The notes below the pieces were generated by a model. The model searched no databases, was not told the DNA's origin, and was given only the letters and a program-made list of their open reading frames with translations. Both the position numbers and the translations under genes were made by a program. A stretch of 64,000 nt of DNA from an uncultured delta proteobacterium (GTDB taxonomy: Bacteria > Myxococcota_A > Polyangia > Haliangiales > Haliangiaceae), in NCBI GenBank assembly GCA_963848295.1, contig CAWKDB010000010.1:4800001-4864000 (forward strand), written 5' to 3'. Shown here piece by piece: positions 53,214-57,755 of the stretch (positions are counted from its first letter, which is position 1; each line of letters begins with the position of its first letter).

Positions 53214-53930
53214 TCAGCGATGTAGCAGCGTTGCGCCGACGATCCGGTGGTCTGCGCGCTGCGCAAACGCGACGGCTCCCGCCGATCGCCACGCCGGATC
53301 GAGCGCGATCTCGGCCGCGTGGGTCTGGCCCGCAGCCGCGACTTTGACGAGCGAGCGCACGACACGATCCGACGCGAGGGTCTCGCCGGCGTTTTCTCCG
53401 CGCGGTACCCACGTCCGCGTACCGTCCTCGTAGATCGCCGCCCACACGTCGGCGTCGGCCGGTGCGGTCGCTTCGATCGTCACGTGGCTGGCCTGCCAGC
53501 TCGCCTTCGCGCTGACCGCGCGCTGCGGTGGAGCATCGGCGATCGCGCGCGTGACGGCGGTCGCATTCGAGCCGAGCACGCCCGACGCGCCGGCCACGAC
53601 GAGCTCGGGCGTGTAGGCGCGACCATCACCGAGTGCGCCGGCGTAGTCCTCCTGGCGCGCACTCCACGCCGCCGACGAGAACGGATCGGCCCAGCCCAAG
53701 CCGTTCCAGTAGTCGACGTGGAACGACAGCGGCGCGATCCGCCGGCCGGCGGCCTCACTGGCGGCGGCGAGCTTCGACAACAGGCGGTCGGCGGGCGGGC
53801 ACGAGCTACAGCCCTGCGACGTGAACAGCTCGATCACGATCGGGGCCTCGTCGGCGCGGGCAGCCGGCGGCTCGCCCGACGCGACCGAGCAGCCCAAGGG
53901 CAGGATCACCGCGGCGATCAGTGAGCGCAT
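53214..53930 (-). CDS. DUF1223 thioredoxin-like protein
   Basis: ELFTSQGCSSCPPAD, FHVDYWN..GW.DPF, YTP, RGENAG. Confidence 0.92.
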   Translation of the reverse strand: MRSLIAAVILPLGCSVASGEPPAARADEAPIVIELFTSQGCSSCPPADRLLSKLAAASEAAGRRIAPLSFHVDYWNGLGWADPFSSAAWSARQEDYAGALGDGRAYTPELVVAGASGVLGSNATAVTRAIADAPPQRAVSAKASWQASHVTIEATAPADADVWAAIYEDGTRTWVPRGENAGETLASDRVVRSLVKVAAAGQTHAAEIALDPAWRSAGAVAFAQRADHRIVGATLLHR

Positions 53931-54031
53931 GGTGGTCGTACGAACCAGCGGGCCGCGAGGTTACCGCGATTCATCCGCAGCGAGGGCCGCAGCAGCTGTC
54001 GCCGTTGCGGCAACCCATGTACCCGGTCCAA

Positions 54032-54247
54032 CCCGTTGCCGTGACCGTTTGCCGTTTGCCGTCGCCGCTGTTCGCCGTCGCCGTGGCCGTTTGCCGTCGC
54101 CGTGGCCGTGGCCGTTTGCCGTCGCCGTTGCCGGCGCCGTTGCCGTTTGCCGTCGCCGTTGCCGTTTGCCGTTGCCGTTTGCCGTCGCCGTTGCCGTTTG
54201 CCGTGGCCGTGGCCGTTTGCCGTGGCCGCTGTTCGCCGTTTGCCGAC
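54032..54247. repeat. Degenerate GCCGT(N/TT) 6-7-mer tandem array
   Basis: ~33 units: gccgtt, gccgttt, gccgtc, gccgtg. Confidence 0.92.
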
Positions 54248-54342
54248 TTTCGGATCGGGAGCAGGAACCGGACCTCGGATTCGGCGCCGAGGCCGTCGCC
54301 GGTTGGCTGCCGGCGTGGCGCCGGCGGCCTCGGCCGAGGTTC

Positions 54343-54666
54343 TTAGTGCGTGAGCCGCCACAGGATGGCGCGCACGTGGTCGAGCGGCTCGTCGACCGCG
54401 GCGAAGTCCTCGGCGGAGATGATGCCGCGCGCCTGTGCGATCAGCAGGGCGGTCGTGAGCTCGCTCGCGCTGCCGGCGGCGCGGCGATAAAAGTCGGGGC
54501 GATCGAGACCGACGCGCATGCGGCCTTCGCTGAGGTTGAGCGCGATGCTCTCGCCGGCGCGGACGATCTCGTCGGCGAGTGACTTGCGCGTGCGGCGGAC
54601 CTTGGCCTCGACAGAAGCGAGCTGCTGCAGGACGGCGAGGGCGAAGTCGAGGGCGTAGAACGACAT
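54343..54666 (-). CDS. Four-helix-bundle protein (23S rRNA IVP/TIGR02436, Avd-like), copy 1
   Basis: LADEI.RA.ESIALNLSEG..R..A.GSA.E motif; 107 aa; SD ggagg. Confidence 0.85.
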   Translation of the reverse strand: MSFYALDFALAVLQQLASVEAKVRRTRKSLADEIVRAGESIALNLSEGRMRVGLDRPDFYRRAAGSASELTTALLIAQARGIISAEDFAAVDEPLDHVRAILWRLTH

Positions 54667-54671
54667 GAAGA

Positions 54672-54896
54672 TCCTCCGAAGTGAGTGGCCGATGGGTGGG
54701 AACGTCTCTCTCTCGCCCGTCGCGCCGCAGTCGCGCGGGTCCCGTGACGAGCGCGGGCGCTGACCACCGCACTCGCCGGCCGATCAACTCCGCGGCGATC
54801 GCTCTCACACGCCGGCGCACTCGGCGCTCGGCGCGGGACAAGCGCGAAGCGGCGCAGGGCGAGAGAGACGTTCCATCCATCGGCGCGAGCGAAGGA
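54672..54896 (-). ncRNA. Putative structured 5' leader RNA (rod-like hairpin), copy 1
   Basis: Long self-complementarity; homologous to 55209-55435 with compensatory changes. Confidence 0.7.
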
Positions 54897-54913
54897 GCGT
54901 CGAGTGTTCCAAG

Positions 54914-55207
54914 GCCGTCGCCGTCGCCGTAGCCGTAGCCGAAGCCGTCGCCGGAGCCGGAGCCGAAGCCGTCGCCGAAGCCGAAGCCGTCGCCGAAGCC
55001 GAAGCCGTCGCCGAAGCCGTCGCCGTCGCCGAAGCCGAAGCCGAAGCCGAAGCCGAAGCCGAAGCCGAAGCCGAAGCCGAAGCCGTAGCCGTAGCCGAAG
55101 CCGTAGCCGGAGCCGAAGCCGAAGCCGAAGCCGAAGCCGAAGCCGAAGCCGTCGCCGTCGCCGAAGCCGAAGCCGAAGCCGAAGCCGAAGCCGTCGCCGA
55201 TGCCGCC
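54914..55207. repeat. GCCGNN hexamer tandem array (49 units, mostly gccgaa/gccgtc/gccgta)
   Basis: Strict 6-bp period over 294 bp. Confidence 0.97.
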
Positions 55208-55208
55208 A

Positions 55209-55435
55209 CCTTTCGCACTCGCGGCTTCCGATCGCCGTGGCCGTCGCCCTGCGCCGCTTCGCGCCAGCGCCGTGCCGAGCGCCGGGACCACCGACGCGTG
55301 CGAAGGACCGCCGCAGAGTTGGATCGATCGACGCGTGCGGAGATCTGTGCCCGCGCTCGTCACGGCGCCGGCGCGAGTGCGGCGCGACGGGCGAGACGGC
55401 CCCGGCGAATCGGGCGTCCGCTCATCCACGAAAGG
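55209..55435 (+). ncRNA. Putative structured 5' leader RNA (rod-like hairpin), copy 2
   Basis: Long self-complementarity; homologous to the reverse complement of 54672-54896. Confidence 0.7.
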
Positions 55436-55442
55436 CCACGCC

Positions 55443-55763
55443 ATGCTCGACGTCCTCGCTCAATCGCTCACCGTCCTCGAACAGCTCGCCCCGGTCGAGC
55501 CGAAGCTGCGGGCTCGCCGCAAGTCGCTCGCCGACGAGATCGGCCGCGCCGCCGAGAGCGTCGCGCTCAACATCGCCGAGGCGAGCGCACGCGCCGGCCT
55601 CGACCGCCCCGACATGTTCCGCCGCGCGTTCGGCAGCGCGCGCGAGCTGTCGGCCGCGCTCATGATCGCGAAGGCGCGCGGCTACATCACGCCCGACGAC
55701 TTCGCCGCGATCGATGCGCCGCTCGATCGCGTGCGCGCGATGCTGTTCCGGCTCACACGGTGA
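55443..55763 (+). CDS. Four-helix-bundle protein (IVP/TIGR02436, Avd-like), copy 2
   Basis: LADEIGRAAESVALNIAE..GSA.E; 106 aa; about 65/106 identical to copy 1 by manual alignment. Confidence 0.85.
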   Translation: MLDVLAQSLTVLEQLAPVEPKLRARRKSLADEIGRAAESVALNIAEASARAGLDRPDMFRRAFGSARELSAALMIAKARGYITPDDFAAIDAPLDRVRAMLFRLTR

Positions 55764-55794
55764 GCGCGCGCCGGGCGCTGATTCCGGCAGCCTT

Positions 55795-55974
55795 GCCGGA
55801 GCCGCAGCCGGTTCCGTACCCGGTTCCGCAGCCGCAGCCGGTTCCGTACCCGGTTCCGCAGCCGCAGCCGTAGCCGGTTCCGCAGCCGTAGCCGCAGCCG
55901 CCGCCGTACCCGGTTCCGCAGCCGCCGCCGCAGCCGGTTCCGCAGCCGCAGCCGTGGCCGTCGCCGATGCCGAC
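55795..55974. repeat. NCCGNN hexamer tandem array (30 units) with 30-bp higher-order repeat
   Basis: gccgca/gccggt/tccgta/cccggt/tccgca units; 55801-55830 is identical to 55831-55860. Confidence 0.95.
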
Positions 55975-56010
55975 AAGCCGCAACCGGTTCCGCTGGCGAG
56001 ATCCGGACGA

Positions 56011-56817
56011 CTACGAACCGCGCAGGGCGCGGACGATTTCTTCGCGCACCACGTGCGCCAGATCGTGTGGTTTTCCGCTCGCCGAGACGGTCGCGACCGG
56101 CGAATGGGGCGCCGGCGCGCACGCGACGACCGGCTGCGAAACCCCGGTGAGCTGCGGGTAGAGCTCGACCGCGCGGTCGGCGGCGCGCCCGATGCCGGCC
56201 TTCGCGCGCGCGGCGATCAGCGGCGCCATCGCCGATTCGGGCAGCGGGACCGGGCCACCGAGTGGGGCCGCGGCCAGTGCGATCTTCGCGAGGTGCTCGA
56301 CCAGCTCGAGCCGGAGCAGCGCGGTCTCGGCGTCCTTGCCCCACGCGATCACGCCGTGGTTGCCGAGCAGCACGACGTCGACAAGCTCGCACCACGGGGC
56401 GAGGGCGGCGCGCGCGGCGTCGCCGGGCGGCGTGAAGGGCAGCTTCGGGATCCTCGGTCCGAGCGACACGACGGCTTCCGCGATAAACGGCCGCTCGATC
56501 GGGTGCTGCGAGCTCGAAGCGATCGCGGTGGCCGCAGGTGGGTGCGCGTGGACGACCGCGCCGACGTCGGGCCGGCGCTCGTAGACGACGAGGTGCAAGC
56601 CGATCTCGCCGAATACCTTGCCGGCGCCGATGACCTTGCCCTTGGCGTCGAGCTCGATGATGTCCTTGTCCTCGACCAGGCGCTTCGAGGTCGCGGTCGG
56701 GGTCGCGATGAACCGTGCGCCGTCGCGCGCGCTGACGTTGCCGTCGTGGTTCGCGACCCAACCAGCGGCGTGGAGCTGGCGCGCGATCTTCGCGACCTCG
56801 CGGCGCAGCGGGGTCAC
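56011..56817 (-). CDS. Class II aldolase with C-terminal BMC encapsulation-peptide-like helix
   Basis: DGNVSAR, TPT..SK, E..LH...[18 protein letters not shown]; tail [14 protein letters not shown]. Confidence 0.9.
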
Positions 56818-57089
56818 GGGGCGGTCTCGACCGCGTCGACGATGCCGACGATCAGCGACCGGATCGGCACGATGTCGCCCTGTTTCAGGATCTGGCGGAC
56901 GCCGTTGCCCTCGGTCAGGACGAGCACCTTGTCGCCGACTCCCGCCTGCGCGTGGTCGACCGCGACGAAGCTCGCGCCGGCATCGCCGCCGTGCTCGTCG
57001 AGCGGCTGGACGACGAACAGCGCGCGCCCGGCGTACGCGGGGTGCTTGACCGCGGCCCACATCGGCCCGACGACCCGGCAGCACCTCAT
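56814..57089 (-). CDS. EutN/CcmL-family BMC vertex (BMC-P) protein
   Basis: RVVG..W...K..., VAVD...AGVGD.VL, IVGIVD. Confidence 0.9.
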
Positions 57090-57364
57090 GGCACCCGTTT
57101 CGGCGCGTCGAGCCCGTCGACGATGCCCACGATCGCGGCGTCGACCGGTACGAACCACGGCTCGAGAGCGAGCGCGGCTTCGCGCGACCCGACGAGGTAG
57201 ACGAGGTCGCCGTCCCCGGCTTGGACGGTGTCGATCGCGGCCTGGAGGTCGCCGACCGGGGCGCGGTGCTCGTCGACCGGCTGGACGAGCAGGATCTTCT
57301 TGCCCTCGAGGCCGGCGGCCTTGCGCGCCGCGACGACCGTGCCTTTAACGATGCCGAGGTACAT
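57086..57364 (-). CDS. EutN/CcmL-family BMC vertex (BMC-P) protein
   Basis: MYLG.V.GTVVA..K...[29 protein letters not shown]. Confidence 0.93.
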
Positions 57365-57416
57365 CGAGGCGCGGTTGTACCATGACGAACAGGGAGAGAC
57401 GGTGCTAGACCACGGC

Positions 57417-57755
57417 ATGGCCTACGAGCAAGAGCAGCGCGCCGCCCTGCGGATCCTCGAAGGGATCGAAGAAGGCACCATGAGCGCGGCTGACTCGGCA
57501 GCGCTTGTCGAGGACGCCGACCCGGCCCTCATCTATCTGATCTTCACGTGGCTGCGCAAGCGCTACGCCGATCACGCGAACTCCGATGCGGTGCTGGGTC
57601 GCGTCGTCGCGATCAGCGGTCGCCCGGCGGTCGCGAAGCTGATGAAAGAAGGCCAGGCCGACTCGATCGTCGAGTGGTTCGAAGACGGCTATTCTTATCG
57701 CGACCTCGGCGCGAAAGAATTCATCGCGCTGATCGTCGAGAAGCTCGAGAGCTGA
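57417..57755 (+). CDS. Hypothetical protein
   Basis: 112-aa ORF with strong GC3 codon bias, divergent from the BMC-P genes. Confidence 0.7.

What the first reader, a model, noticed from the sequence alone, without database searches (positions are those of the whole stretch)
54672..55435. Homologous ~225-nt rod-like RNA hairpins with compensatory base changes upstream of both FHB genes
Read in each gene's sense, both leaders share a ~150-nt core running tcgccctgcgccgcttcgcgc ... cgagcgc ... cgccgcRgagtt (apical) ... gcgctcgtcacgg ... gcgcgaStgcggcgcgacgggcga, whose halves pair. The variable parts covary. Copy 1 has gtccc/gggac where copy 2 has gcgcc/ggcgc. The outer stem is gccgatggatggaacgtctctc/gagagacgttcccacccatcggc in copy 1 and an unrelated ccgatcgccgtggccgtc/gacggccccggcgaatcgg in copy 2. 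Preserved pairing with changed sequence indicates selection on structure (RNA or ssDNA). I do not recognise it as a known Rfam family.
Basis: seen in the sequence. Interest (0 to 1): 0.82.

Follow-up and report, generated by a model that had tools for sequence, protein, structure and literature searches.

The report
Hairpin signal of a myxobacterial repeat
The two hairpins are copies of a long stem with a fixed-length loop that marks a small selfish DNA element of one family of myxobacteria; it occurs both in front of a small nucleic-acid-binding-type gene, whose start it hides, and on its own, which hints at an undescribed way of spreading.

Summary
Real, but not a 225-nt rod. Each copy is a ~80-bp imperfect stem closed by an unstructured 69-70-nt loop. 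Covariation holds on 31 homologues (12 of 29 pairs, 0/500 shuffles); no Rfam family. The hairpin heads a dispersed element: 24 copies in this genome, all before a four-helix-bundle (PF05635, Avd-fold) gene; this site is empty in 15 of 29 relatives. New here: the stem covers the Shine-Dalgarno site (59 of 65) and often runs on as a decayed inverted copy of its own gene (32 of 65); loop length is quantised (161 of 177 at 34-40 or 68-76 nt); the gene-sense strand lacks the G-U excess of an RNA stem; and gene-less multi-copy forms exist, also in two genomes with no PF05635 match. Best reading: cis signal of a mobile element that also silences its gene in read-through mRNA. RNA versus single-stranded DNA is unresolved. 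The scan noted the gene-plus-leader cassette before on other DNA (e1-7342930, e1-3910770, e1-7083824).

The parts
53214..53930 (-). Host gene DUF1223 (left flank, not part of the element)
   Evidence: PF06764; lies 26-193 nt after the aldolase stop in 15 of 29 relatives
54044..54231 (.). Left hexamer array, GCCGNN on the + strand
   Evidence: (D2)
54343..54666 (-). Four-helix-bundle gene A, 107 aa
   Evidence: PF05635, E 2.9e-12
54667..54754 (-). Hairpin A, gene-side arm; Shine-Dalgarno site at 54674-54681, conserved mismatch motif at 54744-54754
54755..54823 (-). Hairpin A, 69-nt unstructured loop with the conserved central word (54786-54797)
54824..54914 (-). Hairpin A, far arm; anti-Shine-Dalgarno at 54890-54898, then a decayed inverted copy of the first codons of gene A that merges into the array
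54914..55208 (.). Middle hexamer array, 49 units, GCCGNN on the + strand
55200..55282 (+). Hairpin B, far arm; anti-Shine-Dalgarno at 55209-55215, motif half at 55272-55282
55283..55352 (+). Hairpin B, 70-nt unstructured loop with the conserved central word (55308-55318)
55353..55445 (+). Hairpin B, gene-side arm; motif half at 55353-55363, Shine-Dalgarno site at 55429-55435, start codon at 55443
55443..55763 (+). Four-helix-bundle gene B, 106 aa; S23p/Avd fold
   Evidence: PF05635, E 2.8e-13; model pLDDT 95.4; 2rld Z 17.1, 2gsc Z 16.4, Avd 8ub7_B Z 14.7
55783..55975 (.). Right hexamer array, GCCGNN on the + strand, ending about 35 nt from the aldolase stop codon
56011..57084 (-). Host class II aldolase gene (right flank); the element begins just after its stop codon
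   Evidence: PF00596

Best explanation
The hairpin is the cis-acting signal of a small dispersed mobile element of Kofleriaceae (Myxococcota). The full form is array - hairpin - four-helix-bundle (FHB) gene - array; this window holds two such units back to back. A gene-less form carries the same hairpin alone. SHOWN by sequence: multi-copy, filled and empty sites, conserved stem with fixed mismatches and bulges, loop of fixed length, stem covering the ribosome-binding site and start codon, FHB genes under purifying selection. INFERRED: (1) when a neighbouring host gene is transcribed through the element, the stem hides the FHB start, as in IS200, so the protein is made only from an opened or shortened transcript (about 0.7); (2) the FHB ring, like its structural relative Avd, binds the folded hairpin (flipped-out bases in the stem, loop in units of about 35 nt) (about 0.5); (3) this complex marks a single-stranded copy for spreading by a polymerase or reverse transcriptase supplied in trans, and fold-back copying from the hairpin leaves the inverted copy of the gene start (about 0.3). 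Which strand folds, and whether as RNA or DNA, is not settled.
For: 24 hairpin matches in G000, all at FHB genes, none alone at E<0.1. Empty site in 15 of 29 relatives and an independent FHB insertion at the same junction in one; another site filled in 1 of 16 relatives, there decayed. Covariation. Shine-Dalgarno at least 60% Watson-Crick paired in 59 of 65, start codon in 49 of 66. dN/dS about 0.17 and 0.14 among the genome's copies (crude count). Gene-less copies: 37 of 50 hairpins examined in nine other genomes (one is the reverse reading of a gene-linked hairpin), none with an upstream array, against 8 of 13 gene-linked ones; 7 and 9 copies in G026 and G046, which have no PF05635 match (95% and 91% complete). 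Loop length: 43 of 177 motif-only matches at 34-40 nt, 118 at 68-76, 10 between; the short class needs 5 changes on the protein tree, at least 3 forced by well-supported branches. Inverted own-gene copy: 32 of 65 rank in the top tenth against other loci's genes, with 113 deletions to 26 insertions, reaching nt 120-260 of the gene in 13 of 55. Neighbouring FHB genes inverted in 47 of 48 pairs. Avd pentamer binds a stem-loop by flipped-out bases (10.1101/2023.10.23.563531, section 8). IS200 hides its transposase SD in a stem (PMC4513863).
Against: No enzyme is encoded; the only reverse transcriptases found in G000 are of group II intron type (genome 85% complete). No consistent target-site duplication or terminal repeat at nine cassette ends (rough test). 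Gene-less copies persist in genomes without a detectable FHB gene, so FHB may not be what moves them. Copies in G000 differ by 6-8% and A and B distances are not congruent (Mantel r 0.07, p 0.34): no very recent burst, and gene conversion blurs history. The pair count includes 11 pairs from G000 and 7 from G076. The mismatch bias was weak in the 13-hairpin replication set (14:11) and absent for G-U versus A-C in the outer and core stem (24:26). No binding, expression or movement was observed.
Confidence: 0.55

Rival explanations
1. It is only an mRNA leader: a translational gate on the sense strand, opened by RNase III cleavage or by FHB binding (autoregulation), as in rRNA intervening sequences; the gene-less copies are dead remnants.
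For: Stem base sits on the SD and start codon with lineage-specific sequence. RNase III cuts the stem of the Coxiella IVS that carries a gene of this family (PMC4990558). U is the least-paired base on the sense strand (59% in the leader), and Avd binds flipped-out U.
Against: Gene-less copies keep the core stem and the 68-76-nt loop, are multi-copy with their own shared 3' tail and have no SD-ATG to gate. No G-U excess in any zone of the sense strand.
Confidence: 0.2
2. The selected structure is an antisense RNA (like IS200 art200 or IS10 RNA-OUT), or a read-through transcript of the convergent host gene, that pairs with the FHB mRNA through the open loop.
For: The antisense strand folds better in 36 of 59 (RNA parameters) and 48 of 59 (DNA) hairpins, in 10 of 13 further ones and in 26 and 32 of 37 gene-less ones; the conserved C-A/U-A position pairs in 59 of 59 on the antisense strand. 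[quoted passage not shown]
Against: The sense transcript would already be self-occluded; gene-less copies have no target; the energy gap is small (3-6%); the loop is purine-rich on the sense strand.
Confidence: 0.12
3. It is an ordinary MITE-like palindromic repeat (YPAL/ERIC/Correia type) moved by an unrelated transposase; the FHB gene is a passenger picked up once.
For: Gene-less, multi-copy, long stem-loop, mostly just downstream of a co-oriented host gene (24 of 28); YPAL has internal inverted repeats and no TA ends (PMC2229807).
Against: No terminal repeats or duplication found; the hairpin sits before deeply diverged FHB clades in the same register (72 of 106 non-redundant FHB leaders carry the motif); FHB under purifying selection.
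Confidence: 0.1
4. Neutral by-product: an old inverted duplication kept complementary by template-switch repair.
For: The far arm is copy-like with deletions.
Against: Fixed mismatches and bulges are kept, not repaired, and loop length is fixed while its sequence drifts.
Confidence: 0.03

Closest known systems
ORF-bearing 23S rRNA intervening sequences (Coxiella, Leptospira; S23p, PF05635)
   Same: Same protein family and fold; long stem next to the gene; short tandem repeats upstream of the start (heptamers in Coxiella, PMC4990558); selfish, patchy.
   Different: Not in rRNA; the gene lies outside the hairpin, behind it, not in its loop; conserved mismatch core and fixed-length loop; gene-less forms.
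Avd and its RNA stem-loop in diversity-generating retroelements
   Same: Same fold (8ub7_B Z 14.7, rmsd 1.7 A over 103 residues); Avd binds a stem-loop by flipped-out bases.
   Different: No reverse transcriptase, template repeat or variable repeat in the element; substitutions in the inverted copy hit T (33%) and A (30%) alike, not one base.
IS200 left end (SD-hiding stem, art200)
   Same: A mobile element whose inverted repeat hides the SD of its only gene (PMC4513863).
   Different: No HUH transposase; much longer stem with fixed loop.
Bacterial MITE-like repeats (ERIC, Correia, YPAL)
   Same: Dispersed, gene-less, long stem-loops next to genes (PMC2229807).
   Different: GC-rich, no TA ends or duplication found, and a gene-carrying form exists.
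Integron attC sites
   Same: Imperfect hairpin whose strand antisense to the gene folds better through G-T pairs (PMC5027507).
   Different: No RYYYAAC core; not in cassette arrays; loop purine skew is on the other strand.

Membership tests
23S rRNA IVS with S23p ORF | Encodes a PF05635 four-helix-bundle protein | tested here: met
23S rRNA IVS with S23p ORF | Inserted in a 23S rRNA helix | tested here: not met
   Flanks are aldolase and DUF1223 genes; no rRNA match in the window
23S rRNA IVS with S23p ORF | ORF enclosed in the loop of the terminal stem | tested here: not met
   Gene lies 3' of the stem; flanking arrays have the same orientation in 32 of 37 genes with both (many are copies from two genomes)
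23S rRNA IVS with S23p ORF | Excised by RNase III | not testable with these tools
   needs a cleavage assay
Diversity-generating retroelement | Avd-fold accessory protein | tested here: met
   (fold only, 11% identity)
Diversity-generating retroelement | Linked DGR reverse transcriptase | tested here: not met
   Four PF00078 matches in G000, none at a cassette, all group II intron-like by reading; genome 85% complete
Diversity-generating retroelement | Repeat pair differing at adenines only | tested here: not met
Integron attC site | RYYYAAC ... GTTRRRY cores at the stem base | tested here: not met
   No RYYYAAC in either hairpin region; one GTTRRRY inside loop B
Integron attC site | Bottom strand folds better | tested here: met
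   (modest; hairpin A with DNA parameters is an exception)
Bacterial MITE (ERIC/Correia/RUP type) | Dispersed non-coding copies forming long stem-loops | tested here: met
   gene-less form
Bacterial MITE (ERIC/Correia/RUP type) | Terminal inverted repeats and target-site duplication | tested here: inconclusive
   None consistent at nine gene-linked cassettes, ends only roughly placed; gene-less ends not tested
Any Rfam family | Score above gathering threshold | tested here: not met

The most novel reading that the evidence does not exclude
A minimal mobile element with no enzyme of its own: an Avd-like protein ring binds a single-stranded hairpin whose open loop is measured in units of about 35 nt (five subunits of about seven bases, matching the heptamer repeats of other elements of this gene family), recruits a host or intron polymerase, and spreads by fold-back synthesis from the hairpin on the strand antisense to the gene. 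Inverted gene copies, head-to-head and tail-to-tail pairs and the GCCGNN arrays would be footprints of that synthesis, and the gene-less hairpins its non-autonomous parasites.
Probability: 0.2. Interest if true: 0.88.

Novelty: new variant of a known kind. Interest (0 to 1): 0.64.

Why it matters
PF05635 proteins are very common and, apart from Avd, have no known ligand or function. This element supplies a concrete candidate ligand with testable design rules (a fixed mismatch core, a loop of 36 or 70 nt, two strands to compare) and natural gene-less controls. If the protein binds and moves it, a large family of 'hypothetical' genes and the repeat tracts around them become a mobile-element class, and the origin of Avd in diversity-generating retroelements becomes testable.

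Tried and rejected
Rfam at gathering and E-value thresholds: nothing. Covariance-model search over many genomes gave no answer; motif patterns were used instead. In 301 genomes of the phylum the long-loop pattern matched 7; the 5 loci from outside the window's family had no FHB gene nearby: not found there with this pattern, not shown absent. No relative in viral contigs. No RNA holder listed; laying four DNA contig sets showed only pieces of relatives. No sigma-70 promoter in 53900-56100. Idea that the mirrored ATG drives a repeat peptide: present in 20 of 48 but frames and lengths are inconsistent; rejected. Idea that arrays are a pre-existing target: most of the 40 arrays away from cassettes look like in-frame Pro-X or Gly-X linkers by reading and empty sites lack arrays; rejected. 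Idea of DGR-type adenine mutagenesis in the inverted copy or arrays: T and A both change and the spectrum does not fit the one I recall for the Bordetella enzyme; not supported. No inverted copy of the gene's 3' end downstream (14 of 87, partly from tail-to-tail genes). The first tRNA mismatch control was out of register and was redone; a first structure string was misaligned and redone; the tenth middle array was mis-bounded and is left out. The tree is the quick one; the careful search did not finish. Ten literature searches found no description of this hairpin; the library lacks most subscription papers and no supplements were read.

Full report
OBSERVATION. Two homologous hairpins lie back to back at 54667-54900 (- strand) and 55200-55445 (+ strand), each directly before a 106-107-aa PF05635 gene. 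Both fold far better than shuffles (z -5.99, -5.59). One part is wrong: the inner 69 and 70 nt are not a continuation of the rod. They fold like shuffled sequence (mean z 0.08 for 40 long loops), and the consensus of 31 homologues has no pair there. No Rfam family matches.

THE ELEMENT. The window is G000:C10:4800001-4864000; named relatives are Kofleriaceae. The genome has ten A/B pairs of this type (one with B truncated), one diverged pair, one single unit and one deleted remnant. A profile finds 23 full hairpins and one partial, all at these genes, and nothing else below E 0.1 (the model search scored only 150 candidates, the nhmmer run covered the genome). Each unit sits in GCCGNN arrays: 36 of 76 arrays of ten or more units lie within 400 nt of the 13 loci, with none in 1 Mb of simulated sequence. 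In nine middle arrays 389 of 405 units start with GCCG while the last two bases take 14 of 16 values. The element is an insertion: in 15 of 29 relatives the aldolase gene is followed directly by DUF1223, and one relative has a different FHB cassette at that junction. A second site is filled in 1 of 16 relatives with a readable junction, a 91%-identical genome in which the copy has decayed. Cassette ends often abut host stop codons. FHB copies are under purifying selection (crude dN/dS 0.17 and 0.14), differ by 6-8%, and A and B distances are not congruent. The protein model matches 2rld, 2gsc and Avd (Z 17.1, 16.4, 14.7; rmsd 1.5-1.7 A over 103-105 residues).

STRUCTURE CONSERVATION. On 31 homologues, 12 of 29 pairs show changes on both sides (5.3 in shuffles), score 0.152 against 0.057, 0 of 500, all slid controls lower. 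Two mismatches in the inner stem are kept: C-A or U-A (44 and 15 of 59) and C-U or C-G (50 and 9 of 59). The outer stem differs from lineage to lineage yet stays complementary. It covers the Shine-Dalgarno site (at least 60% paired in 59 of 65) and the start codon (49 of 66).

THREE FEATURES NOT IN THE FINDING. (1) Loop length is quantised. With the spacer free from 22 to 83 nt, 177 motif matches in 138 genomes of the family (two matches from unpublished G038 dropped; three are both-strand duplicates; many are copies within a genome) give 43 at 34-40 nt, 118 at 68-76, 10 between, 5 shorter, 1 longer; reversed-pattern controls gave 2 and 4 hits. One loop of 108 nt was seen. On a quick protein tree the short class needs five changes, at least three forced by well-supported branches, and one 34-nt loop is nested in a 70-nt clade. 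The distance from motif to start codon varies much more (66-112 nt in the long class). A unit of about 35 nt equals five times seven, which would suit a pentamer, but also six times six, and other 35-nt rulers exist (the SSB 35-nt mode, recalled, no call). (2) Beyond the start codon the far arm often continues as a decayed inverted copy of its own gene: 32 of 65 rank in the top tenth against other loci's genes, with 113 deletions to 26 insertions (controls 861 to 626); the likeness reaches nt 45-135 in 18 of 55 and nt 120-260 in 13 of 55. ATG is mirrored in 20 of 48, and in L090 one hairpin stands between two divergent FHB frames. Neighbouring FHB genes are inverted in 47 of 48 pairs, of which 18 come from two genomes. 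(3) The gene-sense strand does not look like an optimised RNA stem: A-C 32 against G-U 13 in 59 hairpins, tRNA control 1 against 17; the antisense strand folds better in 36 of 59 (RNA parameters) and 48 of 59 (DNA). Against this: 13 further hairpins gave only 14:11 for all mismatch classes though 10 of 13 folded better antisense; by zone the G-U:A-C counts are 24:26, 14:35 and 18:33; the loop is purine-rich on the sense strand; and unpaired U on the sense strand would equally suit an Avd-like binder. A strand-biased mutation process could also give the pattern.

GENE-LESS FORMS. Of 58 motif-found loci, an FHB gene followed in 16 of 27 long-loop, 13 of 20 short-loop and 3 of 11 other matches. 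Reading 15 of those without a gene showed about ten true hairpins and five chance matches. A wider look at 50 hairpins in nine genomes, chosen partly because they lacked a gene, gave 13 gene-linked (8 with an upstream array) and 37 gene-less (none with one; one of the 37 is the reverse reading of a gene-linked hairpin). They keep the core and, with few exceptions, a 68-76-nt loop, share a genome-specific 3' tail, are 75-92% alike, and mostly follow a co-oriented host gene (24 of 28). G026 and G046 hold 7 and 9 copies and no PF05635 match (95% and 91% complete). So the hairpin is more than a translational gate, and the arrays go with the gene, not with the hairpin.

MECHANISM. The best-supported reading is a cis signal of a mobile element that also hides its gene's start in read-through transcripts. 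The gate follows physically from the sequence and has a precedent in IS200 (PMC4513863, passages read). Binding by the FHB ring is inferred from the fold and from Avd, whose five subunits grip a stem-loop by flipped-out bases (10.1101/2023.10.23.563531, passages and section 8 read). Spreading by fold-back copying of a single strand is the least certain step; it would explain the inverted copies and inverted pairs, but decay of an old duplication under selection on the gene side explains the deletion bias as well. No mobilising enzyme is linked, and no target duplication was found.

COMPARISON. It shares protein and repeat association with ORF-bearing 23S IVS (PMC4990558, passages read) but fails location and layout. 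It shares strand bias with attC (PMC5027507, passages read) but lacks the core. The gene-less form resembles YPAL/ERIC-type repeats (PMC2229807, passages read). One further preprint was checked for one term and is not relevant; other papers were seen only as search listings. Ten searches found no description. Earlier notes of this scan describe the gene-plus-leader cassette and many gene-in-hairpin cassettes; I saw only their short texts, which do not mention loop quantisation, the inverted gene copy, strand bias or gene-less forms. No claim here rests on the unpublished genomes G037 and G038.

VERDICT. A real, selected, undescribed structured element; a new variant of the IVS-type/MITE-type selfish elements with unexplained design rules. 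Interest 0.64.

Noticed in passing
G000 C2:271083, C2:797188, C10:2647165, C10:3467581, C10:3175866, C10:4056361, C2:436753 (outside the window): A second PF05635 element family with 15-bp terminal inverted repeats and GACCTT-type hexamers, inserted next to CTAG stops; one copy has a 12-bp direct repeat on both sides. Several copies are interrupted by group II intron sequence, and three of the genome's four reverse-transcriptase matches sit at such copies.
   Followed up: partly
G000 C8:9516-9824: PF05635 gene enclosed by inverted GAGCCC arrays, the gene-in-hairpin layout.
   Followed up: no
window 53938-53965: GTAACC ... CGTA pair upstream of DUF1223, also seen in several relatives' empty sites; looks like an ECF sigma promoter (recalled, not tested). 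The element inserted upstream of it.
   Followed up: no
L101, after the aldolase stop: A short inverted hexamer array of another sequence (GCGTAA type) without a gene at the same junction.
   Followed up: no
L298, L327, L336, L337, L340: Gene-less hairpins preceded or followed by truncated tandem copies of their own 5' arm, some ending at the conserved mismatch motif.
   Followed up: no
window 57086-57418 and upstream: EutN/CcmL microcompartment vertex gene next to the class II aldolase; likely a bacterial microcompartment locus.
   Followed up: no
G000, 40 CCG-period arrays away from cassettes: Most appear to be in-frame Pro-X or Gly-X linkers in proteins, in the same period as the element's arrays.
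   Followed up: partly
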